From: Rhizophagus irregularis
Taxonomy: Eukaryota
Reading direction: 5' to 3'
Assembly: GCF_026210795.1 (NCBI RefSeq)
Contig: NC_089435.1
Span: forward strand, 434,001-498,000
DNA: 64,000 nucleotides
This document shows, piece by piece, positions 1 through 64,000 of this stretch (positions are counted from its first letter, which is position 1; every line of letters begins with the position of its first letter). The notes below the pieces were generated by a model. The model did not search any database and was not told the DNA's origin. It worked only from the letters and a program-made list of their open reading frames with translations. Position numbers and translations under genes: made by a program.

Positions 1-1294
1 CACCATGAGTTAAATTTGATTCATGAATTACTTTGAGTCCTAATCAATAAATGTAATCTGTCTTGCCACTTAAATTTAATTATATCAGATAAACATTTTC
101 TCAAACTTCCTTTTTTTGCATAACTCATTACTATTATATAATTTAAACTATTTGGATCTTTAGTAATTCCACAGAATTGAATAAATTTTGAAAATGATTT
201 TTTTTGACAGGTATAATGATATTTCCACTATATAAATAATAAAAAAATTATTAAATTTTTGCAAGAGAAAATAAATTAGCTATAAAATAATATAAATAAC
301 ATACCTCCTCCAGAAATTTATCATTTAAATTTGATGAATTATTAAGTGTTTTAAGAATAACCTCATAACCTGTTTGAAAATTACATCTATTCCATTGTTT
401 TTTGTCAAAATTCCAACTAAAAATAGGTCCATCTAACCAGATAGCTTTATGAATTTCACTAAATCTTCCTTTATCATAATAATTAATACTTGACAATTTA
501 TCATAAGGTATCCATTCTAAAATTTCATAACTATTCTTAGCTTTTAATTGTGCTTCTTGAATAAATTTATCAATAAATTCATTTTTACTAGTCCACTTTG
601 AAAAATCTTGTTGAAATTGTTTAGTATTACATTGTTGGCACCACTGGTAATAAGTATATGGTTGCTTGCATTCATTACATAATTCACCAGCTTCATTATT
701 ATAACTTACTTCATTACTTCTTGTTGCTCTTTGTTGCCAATAAAAGGCTTTTTCTAAATTCTTTTCTGTTCCTTCACCATTATAATACATACCAGCTAAA
801 TTATTCATTGTACTAGTATTACCATGTTCTGCTGCATTTTGATACCAAGAAAAGGCTTTTTCTAAATTCTTTTCCGTTCCTTCTCCACTATAACAACACA
901 TGGCTAAATTAAACATTGCTTCTTTAACACCGTTTTCTGCTGCTTTTTGATACCAATAAAAGGCTTTTTCTAAATTCTTTTCTATTCCTTCTCCATATTC
1001 ATAACATACGGCTAAATTATTCATTGCATCTGCATCACCATTTTCTGCTGCTTTTTTATACCAGTAAAAAGCTTTTTCTAAATTCTTTTCCGTTCCATTT
1101 CCACCTTCATAACGTATGGCTAAATTAAATATTGCTTCTCTATTACCATTTTCTGCTAATTTTTCTAAAGAATTAATGCATTCTTTACACCATAATTCAT
1201 TAGTAAAAGGTTTACTGCAATATAAACAATTTTCGTTATTTATTGTATTGATATCATTATTTGAAATATTTAAATTGCTAAATTTCGTTCCCAT
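1..1294 (-). pseudogene. Sel1-repeat (4x) + CxxC/WCxxC + tyrosine-kinase-like kinase gene, frameshifted; continues off the left edge
   Basis: Exon 1 is 1294-305: four 36-aa Sel1 repeats, CxxC..WCxxC, EWIPY, VILK. Phase-0 GT-AG intron at 304-228; exon 2 from 227 (WKYHY...MSYAKKGSLRKCL). Relative to the paralog at 62020-62050 an 11-bp segment (ataattgtttt) is missing near position 44, giving an in-frame TGA at 23-21 before the HGD catalytic loop. Confidence 0.85.
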
Positions 1295-1599
1295 TTTTTA
1301 TTTAGAAACTTATTTTATTGAAAGAATTTATTTTTTTTTGACAAATTTTTTTTTATATTTTATTGAGTTTACTAAAAAGGAATACTTGAACCAAAAGTAG
1401 AAGTCACAACAAAAAAAAAAAATTTTTTCGGGTCATATTTTTTCCGATAAACTAATCTGCGACGAGTTAAAATCATAGATAAATATCTATAATAAAATAT
1501 TGAATTTTTCAAAAATTAATCTTGTTATTTTTTTACATTAAGATTATTTGATCATATAATTTTAAAAAAAAATTAAGCGAATGTAAGCGAATTCATTAT

Positions 1600-7108: not shown

Positions 7109-7803
7109 ATTTTATACCATTTTTTATTCGTATAGCAAGAAGAAATAACGATGCAAACTATCAATAATTTATGTAATAATAAATTATATAAATTGATAAT
7201 ATCCTTTATAATAGATTTATTCCATGTTTTTTTATTCCATGTTTTGTTTTCTGCATATTCACGTGATTTTTACAGAAATTACGGATCAAATTACAGGGTA
7301 AGTAACATGAAATTCAATTACAAATTTTCAAAAAAAAATAATTTATTTAATTCTAATACTTAATTTTCATTATGTACTCAGTAATACAGATATTCAGCTC
7401 AAAAGCCTCAAATAATTAAGAAGTTTATCAATTAGGTCTTTGCTATACATATCTGAATTGAGGGACCAATTAGATTTTAATAGTCGAAAGTTTCTTTTTT
7501 GCGAATATTTACATTAGATATTGAATAGTAATTTTATACCAGTATTATCTTTTTAATAGTGGAATATGACTTATTGATAAATAAATAACTGCTAGCATCA
7601 AAAAATAATTTTTCTTGTACAAAATATTTATAACATTTATATATCAATTTTGAATCATTCTTTAAAATAATACAAAGTAATTTAATCAATTACAAGCTAC
7701 TTTTATTTATGTAAAAAAAGTTTACATTTTAACTCTATAATCAATGAACAAAAATTATAATATCAAAAATTAATTTCTCATTATAATAAACCTAACAAAA
7801 TCT

Positions 7804-10800
7804 TTAATTAATCATAAAATTTACCTTAATTGCACAGTCTAAGCAATCAGTATTATCATCTGCGTATTTTGGAAGATTTTCCGTAAAAGGATTGAGTAAT
7901 CTAGATGTATAGAAAGCTTGAGAGTGAGTTGTTGAATGATTATTTTTACCTACTCCATTATTATTGTATCTATATTCTTCTGCTTCTTTGAATTGATCGT
8001 CATTATTTGAATAAAATTGCTTAATTAATTCTTCCACTTCAGCAACATTAGGCCTATTCATTGGATTTAAATCCAAACACTTTATCATTAGGTCAATATA
8101 ACAATTAGGTGCTTCTTGCTCATTTGTTTCTGGTCTAATTCCTTTACAAATATCTAATGCTAATAATCCATCATGAGCACGATTTGCAAATGGTTGTTTT
8201 TCAGTTGCCACAAAATACATCATCATTCCAAAGCTATATATATCTGCTGCTTTAGTATAAGGTCTTCCTCTTAATACTTCAGGAGCTACGTAGGGCATAA
8301 CTCCATAAGTTTTTGTTTCATCTATGTTATTAACTTCTCCACTTGATCCCATATCTGAAATATAGTTTGAAGTAGCCCAATAATAAGTATCCTTAAATAA
8401 TATATTTCCTGTATGAAAATCACGATGAACCATCTGTTTTTGATGCATTTCTTTAAGACCATTAATAATATTATTCAACACTTTTAATTTATTTGACCAA
8501 CTAAAGTTTTTATGATTATTATTTAACCAATTATTAAAATTTCCACCTCTTGCATGTTGAAGAACCATAATATAATCTTCTGTATCTGGGTTTTGAGATA
8601 TACCATATATTTTAAGAATTTCACCAGAATTGTCAAAATTATTAAACCTACTAATTGAATATGCTTTAACCTAAAAAAAGAAAAATAATTACTAATTATT
8701 ATATTTAAGAAAATGTACTCAAATTAAATATTTTCGTACCTCACTTAGAAATTTATTAGAAATATTTTGAGAATCATCTAAACATTTTAAAGCTACCGTT
8801 TTATTTAAATCTCTTGTATATTCCTTTTTATTCCAATATAATGGACCTTCCATCCATCTTGCTGAATATACTTTAGCAAAACCACCTTTACCTATTTCTT
8901 TAATATCATTAAATTGGTTGTATGGTATCCATTCAAATATTATATCATTATGATCATTAATTTTTAATTGCATTTCCTGAATTAATTTATCAATTTGTTC
9001 ATTATTACTGGTCCAGTTCATAAAATTCTCTTTTAAATAATTTATTTGACATGATTTACACCATTTATATTCTGCATTTATATATTTGTTGGCACATTTA
9101 TCACAAAAAATTTTAAAATATTGATTTAATTCAAGGACTATAATATAATTCATTGTATTAGAATTTTGTGATATTCCATACAACTGAAATTCTTTATACT
9201 GTACAATAATCTATTATCAAAAATATTAATATTATAGAAAATATTTAAATTAAATTTACAGAAAATTTACATACCTTGTTCAGAAATTCTTTAGTAATAT
9301 TTTGTGAAATAGTTAGATATATTAAAATAACTACTTTATTTATTGAATTTCTTGTATATTCCTTTTTATTCCAATATAATGGACCTTCTATCCATCTGGC
9401 TGAATATACTTTAGAAAAATTATCTTTGCCTATTTTTTTAATGTCATAAAACTGATTATATGGTATCCATTCAAATATTATATCTCCATGATTATGAATT
9501 TTTAGTTGCATTTCTTGAATTAATTTATCAATAAGTTCATTTTCACTAGACCAGCTTGTGAAATTTTCTTTTAACCAACTTATTTTGCATGATTTACACC
9601 ATTTATACTCCACATTTGTAAAGTACTTTTCACATTTTATACAGTAATTTTCCAAATATTGATCTACATTAAATATCATAACGTAGTCCTTTGTTTTAAG
9701 ATTTTGAGATATGCCATATATATCAACTTTATCATAATATGCTGTAATCTATTAAAAATAAATGTTATTATATCGTAATATACTTGAAATTAATTTCATA
9801 GAAATTTACATACCTCATTTAGAAATTCATAAGTAATATTTTGTGAGTCAACTAAATATTTTAATATAACTGCACTATTTTCTAAACTTCTTGCATATAC
9901 ATTTTTATAATGACTAAATGACAATGGACCATCCTTCCATCTTGCTAAATATGTTGTATGGCTTAATTCTTTGGTATCATTGAATTGATAATATGGTATC
10001 CATTCAAATATTATATCTTTATAATCATTAACTTTTAATTGCATTTTCTGAATTAATTTATCAATAAGTTCATTTTCACTCGTCCAGTTTGTGAAATTTT
10101 CTTTTAACCAACTTATTTCACATGATTTACACCATTTATATTCTGCATTTGTAAAATATTTTTCACATTTTACACAGCAATTTTTCAAATATTGATCTTC
10201 ATTAAATATGACGATGTAATCCATTGTATCAGGATTTTGAGATATACCATATATTTTAATTTTACTATAATACGTTATAATCTATTAAAATAAGTGTCAA
10301 TATATCATAATTTGCTTGAAATTAAATTTATAGAAAATTTACATACCTTATTTAAAAATTCATTAGTGATATTTTGTGAATTAATTAAACATTTTAAAAT
10401 AACTGCTTCATTTGCTGAATTTTTTTTATATCTTTGTTCATTCCAATACAATAAATCATTATTCCATCTTGTTACATATCTTTCTACATTCCAATACAAT
10501 AAACCATCTTTCCAGCTTGCTAAATATGTTGTATTGCTTAATTCTTTAATATCATTAATTTGATTGTATGGTATCCATTCAAATATTACATCTTTGTAAT
10601 CATTAATTTCTAATTGCTCCTTTTGAATTAGATTATCAATTTGTTTATTGCCGCTAGTCCAATTTGTAAAATTTTCTTTTAACCGATATATTTGGCATGC
10701 TTTACACCATTTATACTCTGAATTTGTGTAAAACTTTCCACATGTTACACAGCAATTCTTCAAATATTGATCTTCATTAAATATCATTATGTAATCCTTT

Positions 10801-13441
10801 GTATTAGGATTTTGAGATATTCCATATATTTCAACTTTATCATAATATGCTATAATCTATTAAACATGAATGTCATTATTTTATAATGTACTTGAAATCA
10901 AATTCATAGAAAATTTACATACCTCACTTAAAAATTCATTGGTAATATTTTGTGAATTAATTAAATATTGTAAAATAACTGCTTTATTTGCTGAATGTCT
11001 TATATATTGTTTTTCATTCCAATATAATAAACCATCCTTCCACCTTGCTAAATATGTTGTATTGCTTAATTCTTTAATATTATTGAACTGATAGTATGGT
11101 ATCCATTCAAATATTGTATCATTATAATAATTTATTCCTAATTACATTTCTTGAATTAATTTATCAATATGTTCATTTTCACTGGTCCAGTTTGTGAAAT
11201 ATTCCTTTAACTGACTTATTTCACATGTTTTACACCATTTATATTCCATATTTGTAAAGTACTTTTCACATTTTACACAACAACTCTCCAAATATTGATA
11301 TATATTAAATATCATAATATAATCTCTTGTGTTAGGATTTTGAGATATACCATATATTTTAACTTTATTGTAATATTCTGTAATCTATTAAAAATGAATG
11401 TCAATACATTACTTAAAATTAATACATAGAAAATTTACATACCTCACTTAGAAATTCATTAGTAATATTTTGTGAATCGATCGAATACTTTAAAATAACT
11501 GTCACATTTGCTGAACTTCTTATATATCCTCTTTCATTCCAATATAATAAACCATCCTTCCATCTTGCTAAATATGTTGTATTGCCTAATTCTTTAATAT
11601 CATTAAATTGATAATATGGTATCCATTCAAATATTATATCTTTATAATCACTTATTTCTAATTGCATTTTTTGAATTAAATTATCAACAAGTTCATTTTC
11701 ACTAGTCCAGCTCGTGAAATTTTCTTTTAACCGACTTATTTCACATATTTTACACCATTTATATTCCACATTTGTAAAGTACTTTTCACATTTTATACAG
11801 CAATTCTCCAAATATTGTTCTTTATTAAATACCAAAATGTAATCCGTCGTATTAGGATTTTTAGATATACCATATATTTTAACTTTATCATAATATTCTA
11901 TAATCTATTAAAATGAGTGTCAATATATTATAATGTACTGGAAAGAAATTAAATTCATAAAAATTTACATACCTCATTTAGGGATTCATTAGTAATATTT
12001 TGTGAATTAACTAAATATTTCAACATAACTGCAATGTTTGCTTTATTTCTTGTATATTTATTTTTATAATAACTATATGATAATGGACCATCCTTCCATT
12101 TTGCTAAATATGCTGTATTGCTTAATTCTTTAATATTATTAAACTGATAGCATGGTATCCATTCAAATATTATATCTTTATAATAATTAATTCCTAATTG
12201 CATTTTTTGAATTAGACTATCAATATGCTCATTTTCACTAGTCCAGTTTGTGAAATTTTCTTTTAGTTGACTTATTTCACATATTTTACACCATTTATAC
12301 CTCACATTTGTAAAATACTTTTCACATTTTATACAGCAATTCTCCAAATATTGATCTTTATTAAATACTATAACGTAATCCATTGTATTAGAATTTTGAG
12401 ATATACCATATATTTTGACTTTATCATAATATGCTATAAACTATTGAAAATAAGCGTCAATATATTATAATTTACTTGAAATTAAATTCATAGAAATTTT
12501 ACATACCTCATTTAGAAATTCATTAGTAATATTTTGTGAATCAACTAAATATTTTAATACAACTGCAATATTTGTTAAACTTCTTGTATATACATTCTTA
12601 TAATAACTATATGATAATGGACCATCCTTCCATTTTGCTGAATATGTTATACTGCTTAACTCTTCAATATTATTAAACTTATGATATGGTATCCATTCAA
12701 ATATTACATCTTTATAATTATTAATTTCTAATTGCATTGTTTGAACTAGATTATCAATTTGTTCATTTTCACTAGTCCAGCTTGTGAAATTTTCTTTTAA
12801 CCAACTTATCTGGCACTGCTCACACCATTTACACCAAACATTATGTGCATTTGTATGATACTTTTCACATTTTACACAGAAATTCTTCAAATATTGATCT
12901 TCATCAAATATTATAATATAATTCCTTGTGTTAGGATCTTGAGATATGCCATATATTTTAATTTTATCATAATATGTTATAATCTACGAAATAAGTGTCA
13001 ATATATTATAGTGTATTCGAGATTAAATTCATAAAATTTACATACCTCATTTAAAAATTCATTGGTAATATTTTGTGAATTAACTGAATATTTTAGTATA
13101 ACTTCAATTTTTGCTTTATTTCTTGTATATTCATTTTTATGATAGCTATATGATAATGGACCATCATTCCATTTTGCTGAATGTGTTGTATTGCTTAATT
13201 CTTTAATATTATTAAACTGATGATATGGTATCCATTCAAATATTACATCTTTATAATCATTAATTCCTAATTGCATTGTTTGAATTAATTTATCAATTTG
13301 TTCGTTTTCACTTGTCCAGTTCGCAAAATTTTCTTTTAACCAACTTATTACACATAGCTTACACCATTTATACCGTTCGTTTGTGTATATTTTAGAACAT
13401 TTTACACATGCTTTTCTTAACAAATCTTCCATCCTTGACAC
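7804..13441 (-). CDS. Multi-exon tyrosine-kinase-like kinase with 9 tandem Zn-knuckle/kinase N-lobe cassettes (about 1684 codons if all exons are joined; exon 5 has an in-frame TAA)
   Basis: Exons 13441-13046, 12983-12507, 12440-11973, 11904-11443, 11384-10923, 10856-10347, 10281-9814, 9748-9275, 9210-8740, 8670-7804. All exon lengths are multiples of 3; all introns are 58-69 bp GT-AG, phase 0. Exon 9 has IGKGGFAKVY and VALK; the last exon has HRDFHTGN, SDMG, YVAPE, DIYSFG. CAA>TAA at 11144-11142. Confidence 0.85.
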
Positions 13442-13959: not shown

Positions 13960-14661
13960 TAGGGTTGGATCGGTCCTAGCAAAGACCGGTCCTGCATCAG
14001 TCTTGGGACCAGTCTTCACGGTCTTCGGTCTGAAATCTGAGGACCGGTCCAGACCGAAGACCGATCCCATATTATTAATATCCAATAAAAATGAGCCAAT
14101 TTTTGTGCTCATCTACTTCTAGGGCACAGTTTTTGCCAAAACCAATTGTCAGTTCAGTTTTTAACGTTTTCGCAATGTTTTTTATTAAAAAAAACGTGCA
14201 AAACTTTTTTTTCGTGAAATTATTAATAAAAAACGTTTTTGCAACGTTTCCTATTAATAAAATAATTAAAAAAACGTATGAAAACGTTTTTTTTTATTAA
14301 ATTGCTTAATAAAAAACGTTGCAAAACGTAAATTACTTAATAAAAATGTTTTCGCAACGTTGTTTGTTAAAATAATTAAAAACGTTTGCGAAAAACGTTT
14401 TTTTTTATGAACTTATTAATAAAAAACATTTTCGCAACATTTTCTATTAAAATAATTAAAAAACGTTGCGAAATGTTTTTTATTTGTTAAATTACATATT
14501 AAAAAACGTTTCACAACGTTCTTTAATGTTTTAGCATAGTTTAGAGGTCTAAAAATCATTTCTTTAAATTTAATCAGTCCGGTCCCGGTCCGGTCCGGTC
14601 CAGGTTGAAAGACCGGTCTTTTTGGGACTGGACCGGACTGGACCAGACCGATCCAACCCTA
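13960..14661. mobile_element. hAT-family MITE
   Basis: TIR tagggttggatcggtc / gaccgatccaacccta; 8-bp TSD tgtatact/tgtataat (1 mismatch); GACCG subterminal repeats; AACGTT-rich core. Confidence 0.85.
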
Positions 14662-14708
14662 TGTATAATCCTCACGTGATTCTAGCTGACCAATCAGGAA
14701 TGGTCAAG

Positions 14709-17475
14709 CCCTATAAGAAATATGTATACGGAAAGGATACGTTTTGTATACATTTTATGTACGTTTCTATAGATTCCGTATACAAATTCCGTATATTTAA
14801 TAAGCAATTCATTTTTGAACATTTTTTAAAAAAACTAATGTATAAGAAATGTATACGGAAAAAATTAATCATGCGGAATGTATATGGAATTTTTAAACTT
14901 TTATTTTTATTTTATTTTTATTTTTAAAATACGGACACGACTGGGGTCGAACGCTAAATAGGAATAAACATGATCTAAAAGAACAATAAATTCTAAGCTA
15001 ATGTTAAACCCAACCTCTCAGGAGGAGCCCGAAGGGGTCGTCTTACCCACAGAGATTTAGGGACCCACGCATAGCGTGGACCCCCTAAATCTGCTCTCAT
15101 ACCAGTACCCACCTTATGCAATGGTAGTTCGTTTCTATACAAAGTCCCTAAGGACCCGCCGCCCATGTACACTACACTAGGTATGAGCCGACTGCAATGT
15201 ATCCAAGGCTCACGCAAATTGGTGGACCACCATAGGTGGTTAGTACTCCTGCCCGCACTATTATATCCCCATAGGGGCCTATATCGGGTACCAAGATGCT
15301 TTAACAGAGTCATAGGACCATCTGGCATATCGGATATGCTGGAACCGCAGTACGGGGCCACTATCCCTTGGTTATATCTGAAGTCAAATGACCATTTCTA
15401 GGACTCGCCATACCAGTCTACCAATGATCACATCTACCACCTTACCATTCGGTAGGCATCATTTCAGCTCCCCCTATAAACCCTTACTTTGATGAGTTTG
15501 ATCTTCCGATCTTCCTTTCTGTCTTGTTTTCTCTTGTCTTATTTTTGTTATTTTTTCTAAATTTTTCTTCTTTTTCGTCACCCCCCTTTTAAAAAAAAAT
15601 TTTTTTTTTCGTACCTCACTTTAAAAATTTTTCTTTTTCATCACTCTCCTTTAAAAAAAAATTTTTTTTCATCACTCCCTTAAAAAAAAAAATTTTTTTG
15701 ATTTTATTCTTTTATTCCCACTCTTCTAAAAATTTTCTTCTTTCTATTTCTATTTCCTCTTATAAAAAATTTTTTATTTTTCTAACTTTGACGTCCTCCC
15801 TTTAAAAAAAAAATTTTTTTTAACTCTCCTAACTTCGTTACCCTCTTTTTAAAAAAATATTTTTTTTTGATTTATTCTTTATTCCCTTTCTTTTTTATTT
15901 ATATTTATCCCTTTTTTTATTTCATAGGCCAGCAGATTTTTTTTTGTGAGAAGATTCAATTTTTTTGTATATCAGTTTGGGAGTCCTTTCCTTTTCCCTA
16001 TAAGAAATATGTATACGGAAAGGATACGTTTTGTATACATTTTATGCACGTTTCTATAGATTCCATATACAAATTCCGTATAATTAATAAGCAATTCATT
16101 TTTGAACATTTTTTTAAAAAACTAATGTATACGGAAAAAATTAATCATACGGAATGTATACGGAATTTTTAAACTTAATATTTTTAGAAAATAATTTTAC
16201 AAAAATCTCGTATCATAACACGAGATCACGTGATTGTTTATTGTTTTGTTATGATACGTTTTTTGTTTTTATATAAACCCTTACTTTGATGAGTTTGATC
16301 TTCCGATCTTCCTTTCTGCCTTTCCCTTCCTTCTCTTTTCTCTTGTCTTATTTTTGTTATTTTTTTTAAATTTTTCTTCTTTTTTCGTCATCCCCCTTTT
16401 AAAAAAAAATTTTTTTTTGATTTTATTCTTTTATTCCCACTCTTCTTTTTTTTAAAAAAAATTTCTTCTTTCTATTTCTATTTCCTCTTTATAAAAAATT
16501 TTTATTTTTCTAACTTTGACGTCCTCCCTTTAAAAAAAAAATTTTTTTTAACTTTCCTAATTTCGTTACTCTCTTTTTAAAAAAATTTTTTTTTTGATTT
16601 ATTCTTTATTCCCCTTTCTTTTTTATTTATATTTATCCTTTTTTTTATTTTATAGGCCAGCAGATTTTTTTTTGTGAGAAGATTCAGTTTCTTTTTTTCT
16701 TTTTTGTAGATCAGTTTGGGAGTCCTTTCCTTTTTGTAGGATTGTTCAGGATTTTTTTCTTTTTTTAGGTCAGTTCAAATTTTCTTTTTTTTTTTTTGTA
16801 AGTTGGGTTCAGATTCTTTTATTTTTGTAGGTTGTTTCAGTTTTGTTGCTTTAGAGTCTTCTTTTTTTGTAGGTCAGTTTTGGATTTATTTTGTTGTTTT
16901 GGTTTCTTTTTCATCAGATGCTTTCATTTATGTAGGTCAGACATTCTGGAGTTCTCTTTCTTTTTTTGTAGGAATGCTGACCTTTGGTGACTTGGACGAT
17001 TGCAGATACTATATGAAGGGGGGTTTTTTTTTTCCAATTAAGTTAGACATTCTTATGTTTCTTTTTTTTGTTTTTTTTAGGTTGTTTGACTCTAAATGAA
17101 CCTGAACTTATAGATAATTTTGGTTGCAATAGGTGGCCTTAATAAGGAGGGAATTTTCATAATGTATTTGTATTTTGTTTATTTTTTATTTTTTATTTAA
17201 TTTAATAAAGTAAAATTAGATTTATGTAAATATAATTATAGTAAACTGTAATACAAATAGTAAATTCAGTGACCAAATCGTATAAATTTCGTGGTAAAAT
17301 CAGTGATCAAATCATGTAAATTCCATATGAATTCCATGCAAATTCCGTATCCAAACCATATTTTTAGTGATACGGAATTGTGCATTTTTCCGTATCCTAT
17401 TATGATACGTTATTTCTAAGGAAAAAAAATCGTATAAAAACTTTATAAAAAACGTATCCCAATTTTTTTATAGGG
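14709..17475. mobile_element. Non-autonomous CMC/EnSpm-like DNA element with internal tandem duplication
   Basis: Ends ccctataa...ttataggg with 3-bp TSD aag (14706-14708, 17476-17478); ATACG subterminal repeats. The left end is repeated at 15996, and 15475-15995 duplicates ~16272-16735. Confidence 0.6.
14900..15475 (-). mobile_element. 5'-truncated copy of the structured RNA retro-module (SINE-like)
   Basis: Close reverse-complement match to 33630-34190, ending in a (TAAAAA)n tail at ~14927-14900; inserted inside the CMC-like element. Confidence 0.75.
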
Positions 17476-17904
17476 AAGCCAAATGATAAATTATTTAAAA
17501 AGATTTTACAAAAAAAAATATGTAAGATAATGGTAATGTTAAATAAGGTGTTAAAAATTTTTTTTCATTTCCTAGCCTTATAATAATATATTTGTATGAA
17601 TCAGAACCCAAATAAATTTTTTTTTCCATAATAGCAATTTCATAGATAACACGAGACCGACAGTATCAATTTTTAATTGATGGAAAAACAAATGATGTAT
17701 ATTCAAAAAAGTCCAGAATTATTAAACCAAAGCAGTTAAAAAATTGATAAAAAACTATAAATAATATTTATTACCAAAAAAAAGGATGATCCGAAAAAAT
17801 CGTCTACATTTACGCAGCGTAAAGGGAAAATCTATTTATATCAGCCTTTTTTATTATCAAATGTAACTTATTTAAAATTTTTAATTTGCCAGCCAACTCA
17901 TATA

Positions 17905-34766: not shown

Positions 34767-36290
34767 TCATTGTGATGAAGCGGAAGAATTGGTCAACGTA
34801 TCCCTCTTGTTAGGTCGGTATTCCACTGTTTTAGTTTCATCTGATGTGTATGAAGGAGAACCAAAAAGGTCTGTATGGTAATCAGGCGGGTAGTAAGGCC
34901 GAGGAGCGTACGGTTTGCTCATAAAGTCTTCATAATCTTGATGCTTTTCCATCCATTTCTTCCACTTGTGATGCTGTTTCTTTTTGGAAGGTTTTGGAGG
35001 TGGTGGAGGTTGTTTCATATACTTATGGTAGTCTTTAGTCCAGACCGTAATTTGTCGAGTCAACATTGCTCGACGATAATAATGTTTGAGTGTAGTACCT
35101 ATAGCGTTAGCGGTGGATGAATCGTAATCTAAAGGATTAGATTGACGTATTTCGATACTGGGAGGTAAATCGGGTTGAATAGGGTTGTATTGTAAGTGAT
35201 AACTACTGTCCACTTTTGACGGGTCTACGGGGTTATAACCGTAATAAACAGGAGTACGTTTAAGTGGTTCTAAAGAGCCACCGAGCACCGCAATTTCTTC
35301 AGCATTCAAATAATGGGGGATTGTATTGGCACCAGAAGGCCTATATGATGTCGAAGGTTGTGAACCAACTATAGGCGTAATACTGGAATTCTTCAGCGAA
35401 TGGTAAGGTATGTTAAATGTATAGTCATCGGGATCAGGTAAAAATTTTCCTATTGAAAAACGTTTGAATTTCAGGTGGTGAAGAGGTGAGTAAATGTGTT
35501 GAGATTCATGGAATAGGAAGCGAAAACGTCTCCCTGCTGCGAGTTTATCTTCTTTCATAGTGCGGGATGTAGGGTTAATATTTTTAAACACCCGTGCACA
35601 ATGTCTCTTAAAGCGGGTTTCCTGTTTGCGTTTCGTTACAGGGTTACTGCTGAGGTCGAAGCTGAAATTCGAAAGGTGTTTCCTATAAATGTAGGCGCCT
35701 GGGTGCTTTCGCACGAAATTACTACTGTTGGCTGCATAACATACATTGTATCGAATACCAAGACGATTGGAAAAAATATCATTTTTCCATCGATGTTGCC
35801 AAAGATCATATACATGATTTGCGTGTGAAGATTTTGAATTTATAAATCCTGGGTCTGAATCAGGCACAGGTTTCAGATGGTGGTTGATTTCTGTTCTCGA
35901 GAATTCAGATTGATGAGTACCACAAGCACGTCTATTTAAAGACATGACGAAAGGGCTCGGGCTATGACACCAGGTGAAAGGGTTTAATGAACCAGGTGCG
36001 CAAGCATGTTCACAAGGAATGTAAATGCCAAAGTGGAAGCGATAGCGCTTATAAGAAAACGAGAAGAAAGTGCGGGTAATGGAGTTCTTCAAAGTTCTTT
36101 TAGAAGCACGTGACTTGATAAAGTTAATTTGTTCCAATAATTTCCGGCGAATCAAATCAAAATACTTTTGTTGAATACGTCGAGGTAAAACTTTTTGTAA
36201 AATAAAAAAGTGTGTGAGCATTTTACTAATTTGATATTTTGTGTTAGGCAAATAACTTGTGGATGTGTATCGAATAGGCGTAGAATCCAT
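34767..36290 (-). CDS. Intronless 507-aa basic protein of unknown function carried by the composite element
   Basis: Uninterrupted ORF, GC richer than host genes; Cys/His cluster (CEHAC...CH...CGTH), Arg/Lys-rich, Pro-rich C-terminus; no RT, endonuclease or transposase motif recognised. Confidence 0.75.
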   Translation of the reverse strand: MDSTPIRYTSTSYLPNTKYQISKMLTHFFILQKVLPRRIQQKYFDLIRRKLLEQINFIKSRASKRTLKNSITRTFFSFSYKRYRFHFGIYIPCEHACAPGSLNPFTWCHSPSPFVMSLNRRACGTHQSEFSRTEINHHLKPVPDSDPGFINSKSSHANHVYDLWQHRWKNDIFSNRLGIRYNVCYAANSSNFVRKHPGAYIYRKHLSNFSFDLSSNPVTKRKQETRFKRHCARVFKNINPTSRTMKEDKLAAGRRFRFLFHESQHIYSPLHHLKFKRFSIGKFLPDPDDYTFNIPYHSLKNSSITPIVGSQPSTSYRPSGANTIPHYLNAEEIAVLGGSLEPLKRTPVYYGYNPVDPSKVDSSYHLQYNPIQPDLPPSIEIRQSNPLDYDSSTANAIGTTLKHYYRRAMLTRQITVWTKDYHKYMKQPPPPPKPSKKKQHHKWKKWMEKHQDYEDFMSKPYAPRPYYPPDYHTDLFGSPSYTSDETKTVEYRPNKRDTLTNSSASSQ

Positions 36291-37441
36291 GTGATAATCA
36301 TTGGTGTGTAAAAATAAATGAAGATTATTGGTGTCCGAGAAAGGATCAGCAAGCTCAAAAAAGAAACTTTTTGAGCGCCTAAATTCATAAATCTTGTTAT
36401 AACCGGTTCAGCGTTTAGTCATCACGTGAAATTTTTTCACAGAGACAAGGAAAGTATTTTCATGAGTATTGGACGTATTATTAAACGTTTTTAAGGGAAA
36501 AGGTAAAGGTAAAATAGTCTGGTCGTTATGAACAGACTGAAGTGGAACAGGTATATCTTCTGTATCCATATCTCTCAGAGGTCAAGGGTAATAAAAGGAG
36601 ACCTTTCCGTAGAGGCCACCGAGTGGTCCTCGCTCCTTACAAAAAATATAAGTATTTGTGAAAAAAAAGGTATATTACTGCGGTTTTTTAACAAAAAAAA
36701 ACGGAAAGGGGAGAGAGTTTTTTTTCTTAAAAATAAAAATAAAAATAAAAATAAAAATAAATGGGTCAGATACGAACGGTCACGTGACTCCGGACGAAGT
36801 GCTTGACGTCATTAATGATTTCAGGAAAAAAGGAAAAACTGGAGAAGTACCAATTTCCGTGATTCTATATAATAAGGTGAATCAAGCTTGTTCATTGCAT
36901 CTGCCTGAAATTAAAAAAGAAGAAATTTCAGAAGAAAAAATTGGCCACAAGCGATGTAGCAAGGAATAATTGAGTAGGGTCAGTTAGTAGTGATGAAACT
37001 GATGGGGAGAGTGAATCAGAAAATATTGCTACAGTAGTGGCGAAAAAAGAAAAATCTGCTCAAGGAGGGAAAGGTAAAAAAGGTGGGAATCAAAGAAAAA
37101 GAATAAGAAAAAGTGATAAATTTGTTAGTAAAGTATCTATCGCTAGTGATAGTAGGTATTAGCGTAGATTTTAATTAAAAATTAAAATTATAAATAGCTA
37201 GTACGTTTTGGTAGTCTTAGTTTGTTTAGTTTTATTTTATTTTTATTTTTTTTAACAGGTTTTTAGATAGATACTTTATTAGGAGATGCATGTCGTCTAA
37301 ATTATGCAATAATTGTTATAATAATAATAAAGTTTTTAAAAAAAAAATTATTAAAATTGGATCGACCTCAGCAAAATTATTTTCCGTGATGATCACATGA
37401 TGACTTAGGGAATCAGAGTTGTTATCTATATAAATAAATAT

Positions 37442-52103: not shown

Positions 52104-54453
52104 TTACCAATTGATGCGCAACCGACACATATTATTGAATTCACTGTTATGATAGAGACGTCCAATACCTTCAGTATTATCATCAAAGTCATAATTTTTA
52201 ATTATACCTTCTACCTTATACATTTGTAGTTGATCCTTTAATACCTGTAGCTCCAATTTATCTAATTCATATTCTAATGTAATTGTTTGTAATATTATAG
52301 GATGTCTGTCCTTCCAACTATCAAGAAATAATTTTAATATTTCTAATTTGTTTTCTATATTCCGAGAAAAAAATTTAAACTTAAACAAATTAATTGGTGA
52401 GGATCTCAATAATATTTCAAATAGTGCTCCGAATGATACGAGTCGACCCGGGTTAATTTGACCCGACTCGACTTTTAAATCGGGTCGGTACTAACGATTT
52501 TTAATGACCCGTGACCCGCATGACCCGCATGACCCGACCCGCCGGGTCGGGTTATAAATTTCCTTGACCCGGGTTTGACCCGGGTTTGACCCGGATCGAC
52601 CCGGATGTTTTTAATTCTGGCAAAATTATAATTTTGGCCAAAATTAAGCCAAGAATTAGTTTTAACAAATATTAACATAGCTTAATCAGAAAAATAAAAA
52701 AATTAACATTTGGCTTTTGAGAATAATATTTTTCTGATAGCTTTAGAATTCCAATTTATCTTTGATTTGAATATCTGCTAATTATTTTGCCTAACTCTTT
52801 GATTTTTATTATATTAAACCAGGTTCAAAATTCGTATTTTTAATTTTATTTTAGATAATTTAGTCTAGGAGAAAAATAAGAGCTAGTGTTACATGTTTTG
52901 TATAACCATTCATGATACAAATTTCAGGATGCTACTAGTGGTTAATCACTAAGTTGCCTTTTTTTCAAATAAAAGGAAATTAATTTTGTTATTATTAGAA
53001 GAAAATCTCACATAATATAAGTTAGTACCCATTTTACTTAAATGTTCGGGTCTAACCCGGGTTACACGAGTTAAATTATACTCGGTCGAGTCAAGGGTCG
53101 GGTTACAAAAATATGAGACCCGAATAAATACGAGTCTTATATTTTTTTATTCAGATCGGGTCGAATATTTCCTCAAAACCCGACCCGACTTGACCCGGTA
53201 GGAGCACTAATTTCAAATAATTTATTCCAATCGTCTTTTTCAAAGGGAGAAAATTCATTCAATTCCATAATTTCTAATTCAATTAAAAATTGACAATGAA
53301 TTAATATATTTTCAACTTCTGGAATATCACTATCAACCAATGATAATTGAAGATAACTAAGATTTGGACAATTTTTATAAATTACTTGTATAAGCTTTTC
53401 ATTATCAGTGGTATTTTGAAAAAGAATACTAATTTTATTAAGTTGACCTTTTGTATTTTCAATTAAACTTGCTAAAATTTTAGATGAGATATATCGAGTT
53501 TTTAGACATTTTAAATGAGGTAAAAATAGATTTTCTAAATGTTTAAAATGTGCTTTGTGAGTAGGTTGTATTTTTAAACTTACTAAATTTATAAGGTATG
53601 AAAGATAATTTGTAATAGGTATCCACCTTATTTTTAAATACTGGATAGTATCTGCACATTTAATTAGCGATTCTTCAAGTGTTTTAAAATATGTATCATA
53701 AATAATAAATCCATTTCTGTCTAAAACAGCAAGATCCTTTAGTTCTTCTTGAGCTCTAATTATTGAAAAATATGTTTCATGCCTATTTTCAACAAATATA
53801 TTACCGAAATTGACTTTTTTTAGGCTTTTTTGTGCCTCAATTAATCTAATGATTCCGGGATTATTCTTTAAGTGATTAATTTCAAATATCAACTTTTTAA
53901 TTGATGTGTTTGTTATAGCCAAACTCTCTAAAACATTACTATTGATTTTAACATCACAAGAACAGTATTTAAGTTCTGAAAAACAAGATTCAGTCCCTGT
54001 AATATGAATACGGTCTAGATTTTGAATAGAAAGAGAAATAAATTTTGTATTCATATTAAATAGATTCAATATTTCATTTCCAACTTTATATATAATATCT
54101 GAATGATTATATTTAATATTTGGATGATTAGTTATGATACATTCTAAAAAATTTAAATCCAAATGTCTCCAAAAACTAATATAATTATATAATAAAGGTC
54201 TCTGATCTTCAAAAAATTCAAATCCTTGTTTCTTTAAATTATTTCTTGATTTTTCTGATAAATGTGAAAGTATTACTTGTAAAAAACTTTTTTCGTTATT
54301 AATATGATCTTTTCTAGTAGGATTTTTCCATAAAATTGGAATGGTTGTTTCACACAAATCCTTATTAACTAAAAGGCATGAACGAATAGTTTTGTAATCA
54401 TCTTGTAATTCTTCTAATATTAGGAGAATTATGTCTTTGTTAAGCTTTTCCAT
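52104..54453 (-). pseudogene. F-box/LRR-like protein gene interrupted by a hAT MITE
   Basis: N-terminal F-box-like LNKDIILLILEEL...SCLLVNK..CE..IPILW; removing the MITE plus one TSD restores WNKLFEI-LLRSSP and a 517-aa ORF. Confidence 0.88.
52422..53209. mobile_element. hAT-family MITE
   Basis: TIR tagtgctcc/ggagcacta; perfect 8-bp TSD atttcaaa (52414-52421, 53210-53217); GACCCG subterminal repeats. Confidence 0.92.
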
Positions 54454-56223
54454 TTTTTAAAACGAAGAAAATTGGTTTTTTTCTTATTTTTTTTTATAGG
54501 AAAGAAATTAAAATCATGATTCATAAAATTGACATCATGATTCATTAATTACTTTTCGTGATTCACGATAACTTTCATGATGACATGCCGCTTTCTCACC
54601 ATGTGACATTGTAACATGCCGATTTTCATCATGTGATGAATAATCTTCTACGAATTTAGATTTACCGATTTTTCGCATATTATCGCATTCGTAACATTTT
54701 TATCAAATCGATTATTTGATTTATTTTGACATGTAGATAATGAACAGATAATTTATCAAAAAAAAAATTCCCCAGTTTATTAGAAAGAAATTAAAGAAAC
54801 CCTAAATGACCATTTTTTATTAAAAAGAAAATTTTAAAAAACCTAATCCTTAAAAAATTGGGTTCCTTAATTTTTTTTGTATGGAAATTAAAGAATCCGA
54901 TTTTTTTTTTATTAATATTTAAACGTATATAATTATTTAAATCAGTTTTATAAAAGTTGCAATTGTGTTAAGTAAATTTAATAAAATACAGTACGTGTGT
55001 TACTGTGTACAAGACTTTTTTTTTTTGCGATAAATTAATAAATCCACATATAAATTTAATACGAAAATTATTAATATTGAGAGTAAAAATTAATTTATGA
55101 AATTGAAAAAAAAAACGAGTTTACGAGTTTCGAGTTTCGAACTTGGATCATTTGGTGAATATTCGTATTATAAAACAGAAAAAAATTAAAGACATTTTTT
55201 TTTATAATTTTTAAAATTTTTTTTTCTTTTTTTTTATTTTTATAATTTGTCGGCAAAAAGTTTTTTTTTTTTTGTATAAATTTTCATATAAAACTGAATT
55301 TTAATAATACAAATTTAGAGATTATAGTTTTTTTTTTATTTACAAATTTAGAAATTTACGATTTTCTTATGCATTTATAAAATAATAAGAAAAACATCTC
55401 TTAATTTTAAAATGTGAAATACGTGGTAAGACATTTTCGTCAAACGATCATTCATAACGATATGAAACATGAAGATTATTCGTCACATGATGAAAAAGTT
55501 CATGTGAAAAATCGTAACATGATCATGAAAAATGATGGGCTTACGGCGGGCCATATCAAACTTTAATGTACGACCAATGTACGACTAATATACGACATCT
55601 CAAAAAATGTCTCAATTTTTCTAAAAAAATTCAAACAATAGTTAACATTCTGTCAAATAGAAATACGGATAATGAATACAGTGTAAAATCATTTTTTATT
55701 ACTAACTATCTCAATATTAATTTTGTAATTTGAACGTAATGTTAACCCAAATTTATCGTTATGATAAATAGTATTTCTGATACGAGACGCACGGCCTAAA
55801 AATTAAAACTTTTTTAATAATTTGGGCAATATACAGTCAAAGTAAATGATGAGAAATTCGCCGACGGAGACATGACACGAAAATGATGGCCGATAAATAA
55901 CTGTAATAAGCAATTTAATAGTTATTACACGCACACATATATATTTATACTTGAGTGTCACATAATCACAATCCTTTTTAATACGTGATGATGATTGTCA
56001 ACACTTAAAATATTATATCCTAAATCAAACTTATTAAAACGTATGTGAGTTATGAATTATGATATACAGCAATGTTAAAATAATTCTTTCTTTACGAAGA
56101 TAATCGAACTGATAATTTGAATAGCTTTATTTACAATAAAATTTGACGTAACCCACCCATACATAATACTGCGTATAAAGTAAAAGATAAGGGAAATAAG
56201 AGTGTGAAAAAAAATAATGATAT

Positions 56224-61276: not shown

Positions 61277-64000
61277 TTAATCTACAACCATACATTCAAA
61301 ACACTCAGACTTTTCTTGAACGATTTCCTGAACTATGAATTTGGACTTTTCTTGAGCTAAAATTTCAGTAAATTTAGTAAATTTGCGACTTGTATAATAT
61401 GCTTGTGGATGAGATTGCATAATAGAAGTATTTGCTTGTTCTTGTGCTAAAGTTTTGTTTGCTTCTACAAATTCAAGCATATCATCTTTTAATTGATTAT
61501 CAATATTATGTACTACAAAGTTATAATCTCCATCCCTGTTTATTGCATAATATTCATTATTACATCTAATCCATCCAGATACAATATTTTCAAGCATTCC
61601 TATGGTTGGTCTATTTGAGGGATTTGAATCCCAACATTTTTTCATTAAATCTATATAACATTTTGGAGTATTTTTTATAATTTCAGGACGTTCCCCTTTA
61701 CAAATATTCAAGGTAAGGTCATAATCATGTGCTTCATATTTAAATGGGGGAATACCTGATGTAAATTCCCACATTATCATTGAAAGACTATAAATATCAC
61801 TTGCTGAAGTATAGGGTTTGTTTCTTAATATTTCAGGAGCCATATAAGGTAAAACTCCATAAATTTCATCATCATCATTACCAGAATCTTGTGAATTGTT
61901 TATAGGTTTACATAATCCTAAATCAATAATAAATAATTCATTGTAATTATCTGACATTAATATATTACCATCATGAAAATCGCCATGAGTTAAATTTGAT
62001 TCATGAATTACTTTAAGTCCTAATATAATTGTTTTCAATAATTGTAGCTTATCTTGCCACTTAAATTTAATTATATCAGGTAAACATTTTCTCAAACTTC
62101 CTTTTTTCGCATAACTCATTACAATTATATAATTTAAATTATTTGGATCTTGAGTAATTCCAAAGAATTGAATAAATTTTGAAAATGATTTCTTTTGACA
62201 ATTATAATGATATTTCCACTATATAGACGATAAAAAAATTATTAAATTTTTTGCAAAAGAAAATAAAATTTGCTATTAAAATAAATACTATACCTCATCC
62301 AGAAATTTACTATTTAAACTTGATGAATTATTAAGTATTTTAAGAACAACCTCATAATCTATTTGTCTATTCCATTGTTGTTGTTTAAAATTCCAACTAT
62401 AAATAGGTCCATCTAACCAGATAGCTTTATGGATTTCTCCAAATCCTCCTTTATCATAATAATAAATACTTGACAATTTATTATAAGGTATCCATTCTAA
62501 AATTTCATAACTATTTTTAGTATTCTGTTGTGCTTCTTGAATAAATTTATCAATAAATTCATTTTTACTAGTCCATTTTGAAAAATCTTGTTGAAATCGT
62601 CTAGTATTACATTGTTGACACCACTGATAATCAGTATATGGTTGCATGCATTCATTACATGATTCAACTTCATTTTTAGAATTTACGTTATTTTCTGCTA
62701 CTTTTTGATACCAATAAAAAGCTTTTTCTAAATTCTTCTTTGTCCCTTCTCCATCATAATACCAATTGGCTAAATTAAGCATTGCTTTAATATGATCTTT
62801 TTCTGCTGCTTTTTGGCACCAACGAAAGGCTTTTTCTAAATTCTTTTCTGTTCCTTCTCCATTATAATAGCTATTGGATAAATTAAACATTGCTACTTCA
62901 TCACCATTTTCTGCTGATTTTTGAAACCAATGAAAGGCTTTTTCTAAATTCTTTTCTGTTCCTTTTCCATTATAATAATTACTGGCTAAACTAAGCATTG
63001 CATTAATACACCCATTTTCTGCTGCATTTTGATTCCAATAAAAGGCTTTTCCTAAATTCTTTTCTGTTCCTTCTCCATTTTTATAACATATGGCTAAATC
63101 TTTCATTGCATACTTCTCGCCATTTTCTGCTGCTCTTTGAAACAAATAAAAGGCTTTTTCTAAATTCTTTTCTGTTCCTTCTCCATTTTTATAACTAGTT
63201 GCTAAATTAAACATCGCTACTTCATCACCATTTTCTACTGCTTTTTGATACCAATAAAAGGCTTTTTCTAAATTCTTTTCTGTTCCTTTTCCATAATAAT
63301 AACTATCAGCTAAATTATTCATTGCTTTAATATAATCTTTTTCTGCTGCTTTTTGATACCAATGAAAGGCTTTTTCATAATTCTTTTCTATTCCTTTTCC
63401 ATCATAATAACTATTGGCTAAATTATTCATTGCTTTAATATAATCTTTTTCTGCTGCTTTTTGATACCAATAAAAAGCTTTTTCATAATTCTTTTCTGTT
63501 CCTTCTCCATTTTCATAGCATATAGCTAAATTAAGCATTGCTTTTTCATAACCATTTTCTGCTGCTTTTTGATACCAATGAAAGGCTTTTTCATAACTAT
63601 TTTCTGTTCCTTCTCCATAATAATAACTATCAGCTAAATTAAACATTGCTACTTCATTACCATTTTCCGTTGCTTTTTGATACCAATGAAAGGCTTTTTT
63701 ATAATTATTTTCTGTTCCTTCTCCATGATAATAACTATTGGCTAAATTATTCATTGCTACTTCATCACCATTTTCTGCTGCTTTTTAATACCAATAAAAG
63801 GCTTTTTCTAAATTCTTTTCTGTTCCTTCTCCATTATAATAGCTATTGGATAAATTAAACATTGCTACTTCATTACCATTTTCTGCTGCTTTTTGATACC
63901 AATGAAAGGCTTTTTCATAATTCTTTCCTGTTCCTTTTCCATTATAATAACTATTAGCTAAATTAAACATTGCTACTTCATCACCATTTTCTGCTGCTTT
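61277..64000 (-). CDS. Sel1-repeat (>=12x) non-RD tyrosine-kinase-like kinase; 5' end outside the window; nonsense codon in the repeat array
   Basis: 108-bp Sel1 repeats at ~62700-64000; CxxC..WCxxC; KGGFG, VVLK; phase-0 intron 62293-62219; exon 62218-61277 with HGDFHDGN, DLG, YMAPE. CAA>TAA at 63787-63785. Confidence 0.85.

What the first reader, a model, noticed from the sequence alone, without database searches (positions are those of the whole stretch)
8740..13441. Kinase gene built from nine tandem symmetric exon cassettes, each a Zn-knuckle plus a split kinase N-lobe: candidate combinatorially spliced sensor/decoy array
Seen: eight internal exons (462-510 bp) each encode [end of alphaC-beta4-beta5: I.AYY.KV.IYGISQNPNT.DY] + [CxxC-x9-12-WCxxC] + [EWIPY-beta1-3-start of alphaC: ..ILKY..SQNIT.EFLNE]. 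All are phase 0/0, so any upstream donor can join any downstream acceptor in frame, and each join rebuilds a chimeric N-lobe. Only exon 9 keeps a Gly loop (IGKGGF) and VALK; exon 8 is degenerate (IGKDNF) and exons 1-7 have lost it (LSNTTY-type). Established: AM fungi have strongly expanded TKL kinases; symmetric exon arrays permit alternative splicing (e.g. Dscam); plant tandem kinase proteins use pseudokinase domains as effector decoys. Inference: the N-lobe-only repeats may be a variable recognition/decoy array diversified by exon skipping and unequal crossover. I do not know a description of this architecture.
Basis: partly seen in the sequence, partly recalled or inferred. Interest (0 to 1): 0.85.

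Follow-up and report, generated by a model that had tools for sequence, protein, structure and literature searches.

The report
Fungal kinase with repeated half-kinase domains
This root-symbiont fungus gene strings nine copies of a protein kinase's front half before a single back half; the eight spare halves are predicted to fold and have lost their ATP-gripping loop, so they likely act as a non-catalytic binding arm, an apparently undescribed design found across many related genes, although this copy carries an early stop.

Summary
The exon anatomy is confirmed: nine cassettes, all introns phase 0, only cassette 9 with a Gly loop, a TAA in exon 5; an overlooked 11th exon ends the gene at 7729. 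It is a Rhizophagus irregularis TKL kinase of a large family (213 of 341 unit-bearing proteins held have three or more units; also R. clarus, R. diaphanus, Glomus cerebriforme, Acaulospora). Each repeat is predicted to fold as a complete N-lobe plus Zn-knuckle and helix. Across 1,246 internal versus 158 kinase-completing lobes, fold residues are kept and ATP-site residues lost (GxGxF 14/1,246 vs 133/158); internal lobes are not one clade, so this happened repeatedly. Combinatorial splicing is not supported: phase symmetry follows from duplicating a unit holding one ancestral intron, also present in single-unit kinases of this window; no clean skip junction was seen (thin data); cassettes show purifying selection (omega 0.34-0.49) and recombination, no positive selection. 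Best reading: a constitutively spliced repeat protein with a non-catalytic N-lobe arm, diversified in DNA; this allele is broken. I found no description in print. New variant of a known kind; interest 0.58.

The parts
13046..13432 (-). Exon 1 (from first ATG): Zn-knuckle 1, helix, N-lobe 1 beta1 to start of alphaC; Gly loop lost
   Evidence: start codon inferred from sequence only
12507..12983 (-). Exon 2 cassette, 477 nt, phase 0/0
   Evidence: 100% identical to gene model P0124
11973..12440 (-). Exon 3 cassette, 468 nt, phase 0/0
11443..11904 (-). Exon 4 cassette, 462 nt, phase 0/0
10923..11384 (-). Exon 5 cassette, 462 nt, phase 0/0, with an in-frame stop
11142..11144 (-). Premature TAA (codon 679 of about 1,676); Gln in the allele P0005; a public model of the same sequence (P0124) bypasses it with an unsupported intron
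10347..10856 (-). Exon 6 cassette, 510 nt, with an internal 48-nt tandem duplication in the beta2-beta3 hairpin
9814..10281 (-). Exon 7 cassette, 468 nt
9275..9748 (-). Exon 8 cassette, 474 nt; full-length but degenerate loop (IGKDNF), beta3 Lys lost
8740..9210 (-). Exon 9 cassette, 471 nt; last Zn-knuckle and the catalytic N-lobe (IGKGGF, VALK, alphaC Glu)
   Evidence: (PF07714 positions 4-50, below cut-off on its own)
8671..8739 (-). Intron 9 (69 nt), seen spliced out in contigs of three runs
   Evidence: unspliced in DNA-like contigs
7825..8670 (-). Exon 10: end of alphaC, beta4-5, hinge and complete C-lobe (HRDFHTGN, DMG, APE)
   Evidence: PF00069 E 5e-31, PF07714 E 2e-28
7735..7824 (-).
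   Evidence: (join in X11, X12); C-terminus DCAIKS in P0126/P0127
7729..7734 (-). Coding part of exon 11 (Ser, stop)

Best explanation
The gene is a tyrosine-kinase-like kinase whose 5' unit (Zn-knuckle, helix, N-lobe) is present nine times in tandem before one C-lobe, and it is likely spliced in fixed order into one long protein in which only the last N-lobe would complete an active site while the eight spare lobes, predicted to fold but lacking the ATP-gripping loop, likely form a non-catalytic binding or regulatory arm. Shown: the exon anatomy, the family-wide selective loss of ATP-site residues with retention of fold residues, purifying selection and recombination among cassettes, splicing of the last two introns in an allele or near-identical copy, and the stop in exon 5. 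Inferred: origin by unequal crossover of a roughly 530-bp segment that carried one ancestral phase-0 intron (hence the symmetric exons); repeated origin in separate lineages; constitutive splicing; zinc binding; and the function, namely that the arm multiplies the surface by which the ancestral N-terminal module meets partners (avidity, scaffolding or autoregulation of the one kinase domain). Variation between genes is made in the DNA (repeat number, mosaic cassettes), not mainly by splicing. This particular allele would give a kinase-less 678-residue fragment or a degraded message, so it is likely a young pseudogene of a functional family.
For: Anatomy. Same alphaC intron in the two single-unit Sel1-kinase genes of the window and in metagenome loci. 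Family: 486 and 667 longer homologues (120 listed each, all Rhizophagus or Glomus cerebriforme); 213 of 341 unit-bearing proteins have 3 or more units, up to 14; 5 of 10 divergent representatives looked up are Acaulospora morrowiae. Fold: AlphaFold2 mean pLDDT 84.6 (P0005, allele of exons 1-5) and 81.9 (P0017, 5 units plus kinase), the same 5-strand plus alphaC pattern in every repeat, no low-confidence linkers between repeats; repeat matches N-lobes of MLKL (Z 9.1, rmsd 2.5, 75 aligned), RIPK2 (8.8, 2.2, 76), JAK2 JH2, RIPK3 (Foldseek agrees). Selective decay: terminal vs internal consensus kept at Gly-loop G 0.99 vs 0.05, F 0.99 vs 0.26, beta3 Ala 0.97 vs 0.33, but W 0.98 vs 0.97, A 0.99 vs 0.95, W 0.99 vs 0.96, G 0.98 vs 0.97 at fold positions. 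Selection: omega 0.34-0.49, omega = 1 rejected with 2dL = 36. Recombination: PHI p = 0.001; nearest non-allelic unit lies in the same protein for 378 of 1,136 units, 0.4% expected. Repeated origin: one clade of internal lobes rejected, AU p = 0.0002. RNA: introns 9 and 10 spliced; one paralogue junction between units 4 and 5 of P0046 in annotated order; poly(A) reads from the first internal lobe of the six-unit P0086.
Against: No partner, activity or phenotype was tested; 'binding arm' is inferred from conservation only. About half of the codons fit omega = 1, as expected also for a tolerated spacer. Full-length transcripts through all cassettes were not observed for this locus or any paralogue; fixed-order splicing rests on one paralogue junction plus general fungal practice. 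Both alleles examined look damaged (stop here; split models with gaps in P0123), and many family models lack a recognisable catalytic loop (41 of the first 120), so part of the family may be decaying. pTM of 0.50-0.56 leaves the arrangement of repeats uncertain.
Confidence: 0.55

Rival explanations
1. Tolerated by-product: the 5' unit slips into tandem arrays by unequal crossover in a repeat-rich, methylated genome compartment; the copies stay folded only because misfolding would damage the attached kinase, and they do nothing themselves.
Against: Near-complete, position-specific loss of the Gly loop (14 of 1,246 keep it) with full retention of fold positions, in at least three separate lineages, and arrays of up to 14 units kept in frame in several species and two orders are more order than drift needs, though selection for folding alone could give much of it.
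Confidence: 0.22
2. Integrated decoy or sensor: the spare N-lobes mimic the N-lobes of the fungus's other kinases, catch inhibitors or effectors from endobacteria, viruses, competitors or the plant, and switch on the attached kinase, as pseudokinase domains do in plant tandem kinase proteins (recalled, not read here).
For: Repeats keep the kinase N-lobe fold, best matches being MLKL and RIPK lobes; lineage-specific expansion, mosaic cassettes and repeat-number variation between paralogues.
Against: No positively selected site class among the 9 cassettes (p = 0.93; low power, recombination present); same nine cassettes in the same order in a second isolate; the MLKL/RIPK match is a generic TKL N-lobe match with Z only about 1 above other kinases.
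Confidence: 0.15
3. Combinatorially spliced array: exon skipping joins any donor to any downstream acceptor and builds chimeric N-lobes, giving many isoforms from one gene; skipping exon 5 would also bypass the stop.
For: All joins would be in frame; data on junctions 1-8 are too thin to exclude it.
Against: Symmetry is explained without it; introns are 58-69 nt with uniform GTATGTAA donors (8 of 9), a layout that favours intron-by-intron splicing (established knowledge); exon skipping is the rarest type of alternative splicing in fungi (10.64898/2026.05.18.725946, passage); no clean skip among the joints listed; the one internal junction seen follows annotated order; the near-universal loss of the Gly loop in internal units means they are not interchangeable with the last one.
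Confidence: 0.08

Closest known systems
Expanded tyrosine-kinase-like (PF07714) kinase family of Rhizophagus/Glomeromycotina (2,533 kinase genes, PMC10234402; PF07714 the commonest expanded motif, PMC6123716; passages read)
   Same: Kinase domain and the N-terminal knuckle-helix module are those of this family; single-unit Sel1-kinase genes in the same window share module and intron.
   Different: The module plus N-lobe is tandemly repeated without C-lobes. The passages read do not mention this; databases label these proteins only 'kinase-like', 'uncharacterized' or with yeast names such as Cdc5/Rad53; no Pfam family covers the repeat.
Plant tandem kinase proteins (e.g. WTK/Rpg1-type kinase-pseudokinase; recalled)
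   Same: One active kinase fused to kinase-derived non-catalytic copies arising repeatedly by duplication.
   Different: There the extra domains are whole bilobal kinases or pseudokinases, usually one; here they are N-lobes only, up to 13, each with a knuckle and helix. No effector binding shown here.
JAK JH2-JH1 and MLKL pseudokinase domains
   Same: Non-catalytic kinase-fold module next to or regulating signalling; best structural matches of the repeat and of the whole model.
   Different: Those are complete pseudokinase domains, often still binding nucleotide (recalled); the repeat has no C-lobe, so no nucleotide cleft can form within a unit.
Dscam1-type mutually exclusive exon arrays (recalled)
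   Same: Tandem duplicated exons of equal phase.
   Different: No clusters of alternatives between constitutive exons; introns are very short; each exon continues the reading of the previous one, as in any repeat protein with one intron per repeat.

Membership tests
Glomeromycotina TKL kinases (PF07714/PF00069) | Kinase domain above Pfam cut-off | tested here: met
   Exon 10: PF00069 108.5 bits (cut-off 31.7), PF07714 99.9 (23.1)
Glomeromycotina TKL kinases (PF07714/PF00069) | Catalytic motifs: Gly loop, beta3 Lys, alphaC Glu, HRD..N, DFG-type Asp, APE | tested here: met
   IGKGGF, VALK, FLSE, HRDFHTGN, DMG, APE in exons 9-10; activity itself not tested
Glomeromycotina TKL kinases (PF07714/PF00069) | Nearest relatives are Rhizophagus/Glomus kinases | tested here: met
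   identical public model P0124
Intact protein-coding allele | Open frame from first cassette to kinase | tested here: not met
   TAA at 11144-11142; Gln in allele P0005
Plant tandem kinase proteins | Two or more complete (bilobal) kinase or pseudokinase domains (definition recalled) | tested here: not met
   One C-lobe only; repeats end after beta5 and run into the next knuckle
Plant tandem kinase proteins | Non-catalytic copy binds a pathogen effector and triggers defence | not testable with these tools
   No ligand known
Pseudokinase domains (MLKL, JAK JH2) | Kinase N-lobe fold | tested here: met
   Predicted models; Z 8.4-9.1, rmsd 2.1-3.5 over 72-86 residues
Pseudokinase domains (MLKL, JAK JH2) | Paired C-lobe giving a bilobal domain | tested here: not met
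   No C-lobe sequence in any of the 8 spare units
Dscam-type / combinatorially spliced exon arrays | Frame-compatible duplicated exons | tested here: met
   but expected from duplication of a one-intron unit
Dscam-type / combinatorially spliced exon arrays | Observed alternative junctions among the duplicated exons | tested here: inconclusive
   None clean, but introns 1-8 of this locus were not covered by spliced RNA at all
Dscam-type / combinatorially spliced exon arrays | Docking/selector RNA pairing elements | not tested
   Introns of 58-69 nt leave little room; no search run
Diversifying immune-receptor repeats (LRR/TPR/WD40 of NLRs) | Recombination among repeats | tested here: met
   PHI p = 0.001; within-protein homogenisation
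Diversifying immune-receptor repeats (LRR/TPR/WD40 of NLRs) | Positively selected hypervariable sites | tested here: inconclusive
   M2a vs M1a p = 0.93, no site above posterior 0.35, but only 9 recombining sequences
C4 zinc ribbon/knuckle | Two CxxC pairs on a hairpin binding Zn | tested here: inconclusive
   Both pairs in 9 of 9 cassettes; Pfam zinc-ribbon hits all below cut-off; metal binding not testable; one subfamily (e.g. P0024) has repeats without the knuckle

The most novel reading that the evidence does not exclude
Arbuscular mycorrhizal fungi have repeatedly turned half of the protein-kinase fold, the N-lobe, into a free-standing repeat domain, and use arrays of up to 13 such ATP-blind lobes, reshuffled by unequal crossover, as a variable sensor arm that gates a single kinase: a new class of intracellular receptor kinases, the fungal counterpart of plant tandem-kinase and NLR repeat sensors.
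Probability: 0.25. Interest if true: 0.85.

Novelty: new variant of a known kind. Interest (0 to 1): 0.58.

Why it matters
Kinase N-lobes are normally known only as half of a bilobal catalytic domain (own knowledge). Here sequence, predicted structure and selection all point to N-lobes used alone, in series, with the ATP-site features stripped in parallel in several lineages. That defines an unannotated repeat domain in scores of gene models of the most expanded gene family of AM fungi, whose purpose is an open question, and gives concrete constructs to test it. It also shows that many 'kinase' models in these genomes are mostly or wholly non-catalytic repeats. The more dramatic Dscam-like splicing idea is not needed, and this locus in this strain is a poor experimental target because of its stop.

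Tried and rejected
No whole genome is held, so no genome-wide census or synteny. The look-up of sequencing runs: no RNA holder listed; not used as evidence. Raw poly(A) runs X23/X24 (about a quarter of each read): 520 and 587 reads laid, 93-94% run on unlike the window, no joint listed; these are paralogue reads, and I had no control that the strain carries this locus, so this is not evidence of silence. Contig runs X10-X12, X6 gave no cover of most of exons 1-8 at 97% likeness; a part without cover proves nothing. Four apparent long skips (8822-12614, 10828-13045, 10830-12505, 10949-12533) were rejected as exon skipping: sides of 19-23 letters, no GT-AG ends, foreign letters between; one was traced to paralogue P0046. 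Search for the DNA of the expressed paralogue P0086 in metagenomes: 0 matches; the profile scan gave 15 loci of only 1.0-1.5 kb, too short for a skipping test. Viral contigs: 0 of 118 candidates. Pfam hits on cassettes (Med28, Spt4, NOB1, BCS1_N and others) are below cut-off or sums of weak repeat hits with no single passing stretch; rejected. ESM Atlas: only Mucoromycota kinase clusters, no model. LAGLIDADG hits (prob 0.3-0.5, rmsd over 20) rejected. The 132-row unit tree finished only as a quick tree; the AU test used 24 rows that I picked from 12 proteins, without the mixture model. No complex prediction was run: an N-lobe with a C-lobe would pass by likeness to solved kinases. Earlier-findings look-ups: 3 of 4 empty.
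Full report
1. Observation. The feature is on the minus strand. Splitting at the conserved donors gives exon 1 (13432-13046, from the first ATG), eight internal exons of 477, 468, 462, 462, 510, 468, 474 and 471 nt, and exon 10 from 8670; the nine introns are 58-69 nt, GT-AG, phase 0. Each of the 9 cassettes has CxxC...WCxxC, W[IM]P and an EFLxE/K end; only exon 9 has IGKGGF and VALK, exon 8 has IGKDNF, exons 1-7 have a loop four residues shorter. Six of the 8 spare lobes keep the beta3 Lys and 6 of 8 the alphaC Glu. Exon 5 has an in-frame TAA at 11144-11142, codon 679 of about 1,676. Exon 10 scores far above the Pfam cut-offs for PF00069 and PF07714; of 8 cassettes scanned none reaches a cut-off.

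2. Identity. A public R. irregularis gene model, P0124 (EXX68085.1, auto-named 'polo kinase CDC5'), is 100% identical over the matched parts of exons 1-4 and 6-10 and jumps the stop with an intron inside exon 5 for which I saw no support; so the stop is also in the assembly behind that model (inference). Models P0005 and P0123, neighbouring accessions on one contig of another isolate, give the same cassettes in the same order at 96.6-100% identity where aligned in full, with Gln at the stop; but P0123 lacks part of cassette 7 and the catalytic loop, so that allele is damaged too or mis-assembled (DNA not seen).

3. It is a family. One cassette finds 486 longer proteins and cassette 9 finds 667; the 120 listed in each are all from R. 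irregularis, R. clarus, R. diaphanus or Glomus cerebriforme. A profile finds 2,637 clusters at 50% identity (150 listed). Of the 10 divergent multi-unit representatives I looked up, 5 are Acaulospora morrowiae and 5 Rhizophagus, so the design spans two orders (taxonomy from own knowledge). A profile of the structural unit finds 1,587 units in 341 of the roughly 415 proteins held; 213 have 3 or more units, up to 14. These sets favour many repeats and include alleles, so they are not a census. Among 51 short close kinases of at least 400 aa, 21 have one unit, 26 two, 1 three, 3 none: there is a continuum from the single-unit form. One subfamily repeats helix plus N-lobe without the knuckle (P0024 and others).

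4. Structure. AlphaFold2 on P0005 (allele of exons 1-5, no kinase) gave mean pLDDT 84.6, pTM 0.56; on P0017 (R. clarus, five units plus kinase, 76-82% identical to exons 9-10) 81.9 and 0.50. Every repeat shows the same strands, alphaC and two further strands, then a short helix, the knuckle and two helices, with no low-confidence linker between repeats. A search that does not lean on Foldseek matches one repeat (residues 481-580) to kinase N-lobes: MLKL Z 9.1 (rmsd 2.5, 75 aligned), RIPK2 8.8 (2.2, 76), JAK2 JH2 8.7, RIPK3 8.4; all 50 rows shown are kinase-fold chains. Foldseek agrees. The knuckle-helix part was barely tested by that search. So the structural unit is knuckle - helix - complete N-lobe, continuing into the next knuckle where the hinge would lead to a C-lobe. 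These are predictions.

5. The spare lobes are shaped by selection. Comparing 1,246 internal with 158 kinase-completing lobes (183 unassigned units left out): fold positions are equally kept (W 0.97 vs 0.98, A 0.95 vs 0.99, W 0.96 vs 0.99, G 0.97 vs 0.98), ATP-site positions are not (Gly-loop G 0.05 vs 0.99, F 0.26 vs 0.99, beta3 Ala 0.33 vs 0.97, alphaC Glu 0.65 vs 0.97, beta3 Lys 0.83 vs 0.99). By motif: GxGxF/Y 14 of 1,246 vs 133 of 158; [VI]ALK 353 vs 152; AxWxxG 1,081 vs 143. Units are related, so these are not independent events. Among the 9 window cassettes omega is 0.44 (pairwise mean), 0.34-0.49 by likelihood, and omega = 1 is rejected (2dL = 36); about half of the codons sit at 0.14 and half near 1, with no positively selected class (2dL = 0.15, p = 0.93), while recombination is clear (PHI p = 0.001 at three window sizes) (own script, 9 sequences, low power). 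The nearest non-allelic unit is in the same protein for 378 of 1,136 units against 0.4% by chance. In trees, Acaulospora internal lobes group with an Acaulospora terminal lobe (100/99), a divergent Rhizophagus group with its own (91/95), and the window's with its own relatives (80/92); one clade of all internal lobes is rejected (AU p = 0.0002, 24 rows picked by me). Either arrays arose several times or they are re-seeded from their own kinase; in both cases the Gly loop was lost repeatedly.

6. Splicing. The phase 0/0 symmetry needs no special explanation. Copying a segment that holds one intron gives exons bounded by two copies of that intron. The two single-unit Sel1-kinase genes in this window have the same GAG|GT intron in alphaC, and the metagenome loci show cassettes ending at EFLxE followed by an intron-like AT-rich break (15 loci read by eye). 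The introns are short with uniform strong donors; in fungi intron retention is the commonest and exon skipping the rarest form of alternative splicing (10.64898/2026.05.18.725946, passage read). RNA evidence is thin. For: contigs of X10, X11, X12 (two samples, one study; RNA status is the tool's guess) join exon 9 to exon 10 exactly at intron 9 (sides 204, 32, 149; depth 3-6), and X11 and X12 also remove intron 10; they differ from the window at about 1-2 letters in 100 (6 of 457 in X10), so they come from an allele or near-identical copy; DNA-like contigs cross intron 9 unspliced with no difference. One contig junction in X11 and X6 reads as unit 4 to unit 5 of the six-unit paralogue P0046, in annotated order and without an intron. 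Poly(A) reads in X23 (26 loose ends) encode the first, degenerate lobe of the six-unit paralogue P0086. Against or open: no spliced junction for introns 1-8 of this locus and no clean skip junction was listed in either lay; the two raw RNA runs gave almost only paralogue reads. Skipping is therefore unsupported, not excluded.

7. Mechanism. Best reading (0.55): a fixed-order repeat protein with one catalytic domain and an arm of folded, ATP-blind N-lobe modules that multiply the interaction surface of the ancestral N-terminal module; diversity is made by unequal crossover and conversion. Shown: anatomy, decay pattern, selection, recombination, 3' splicing. Inferred: origin, constitutive splicing, zinc binding, binding function. 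Rivals: tolerated spacer (0.22), decoy sensor (0.15), combinatorial splicing (0.08). This allele would stop at codon 679, before the kinase, and is likely a young pseudogene; the current reference-type model for the locus (P0127) covers only the kinase end.

8. Literature. Nine full-text searches (listings and starts of abstracts only) showed no paper on N-lobe repeats in these fungi; 'N-lobe, repeats, kinase, Glomeromycot' gave 0 papers and 'tandem kinase, Rhizophagus' 1 unrelated review. Passages read: PMC8647823 (kinases high-copy, methylated, near MULEs), PMC6123716 (PF07714 the commonest expanded motif), PMC10234402 (2,533 kinases), PMC8778642 (MLKL-like homologues in Glomeromycotina). 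No supplements were opened, and the library lacks most subscription papers, including early genome papers whose supplements on kinase architectures could bear on novelty. Statements on plant tandem kinases, Dscam and JAK/MLKL biology are recalled. An earlier unchecked note (e1-9917726) describes about 19 decayed kinase front ends in a spliced RNA in another genome; it is a lead only.

9. Verdict. Real feature; a new architectural variant of a known, hugely expanded kinase family. The surprising part is the N-lobe used alone as a repeat domain, with parallel loss of the ATP site, across many genes. The splicing-diversity idea is unsupported and this allele is broken. Interest 0.58.

Noticed in passing
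window 251-1297 (-) and 62288-64000 plus 61277-62218 (-): Two Sel1-repeat kinase genes (4 and at least 10 Sel1 repeats by Pfam; 108-bp tandem unit) with the same knuckle-helix-N-lobe module in one copy and the same alphaC intron; the Sel1 block sits upstream of the knuckle and varies in number, a second repeat-expansion route on the same kinase scaffold.
   Followed up: partly
window 10428-10527: 48-bp tandem duplication inside exon 6 that lengthens the beta2-beta3 hairpin by 16 residues in frame; also present in the allele P0123.
   Followed up: partly
window 34767-36407 (-): 546-codon open frame, less AT-rich than its surroundings, with no Pfam hit at E 0.01; orphan or mobile-element derived.
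   Followed up: partly
window 53173-54456 (-): 427-codon frame with an F-box-like start and leucine-rich-repeat-like body by eye; no Pfam hit at E 0.1.
   Followed up: partly
window 13960-17500: Nested repeats upstream of the gene: a 141-bp pair at 96% (14709, 15996), a 275-bp pair at 85% (15692, 16420), an AAACGTT-rich satellite at 14200-14520 between CCGGT-rich ends (about 13970-14070 and 14580-14660); probably non-autonomous transposon remains.
   Followed up: partly
L010:348-1047: Soil-metagenome contig whose downstream cassette reads like gene model P0036 but whose upstream cassette differs from that model, switching near the conserved NSQNISDEFLNE motif: a recombinant between paralogues or an assembly chimera (compared by eye).
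   Followed up: no
proteins P0024, P0025, P0037, P0042, P0062, P0075, P0098, P0133: A subfamily repeats helix plus N-lobe 10-13 times without the Zn-knuckle; several models lie on one 4.92-Mb contig, and similar loop sequence is in poly(A) reads of X24.
   Followed up: partly
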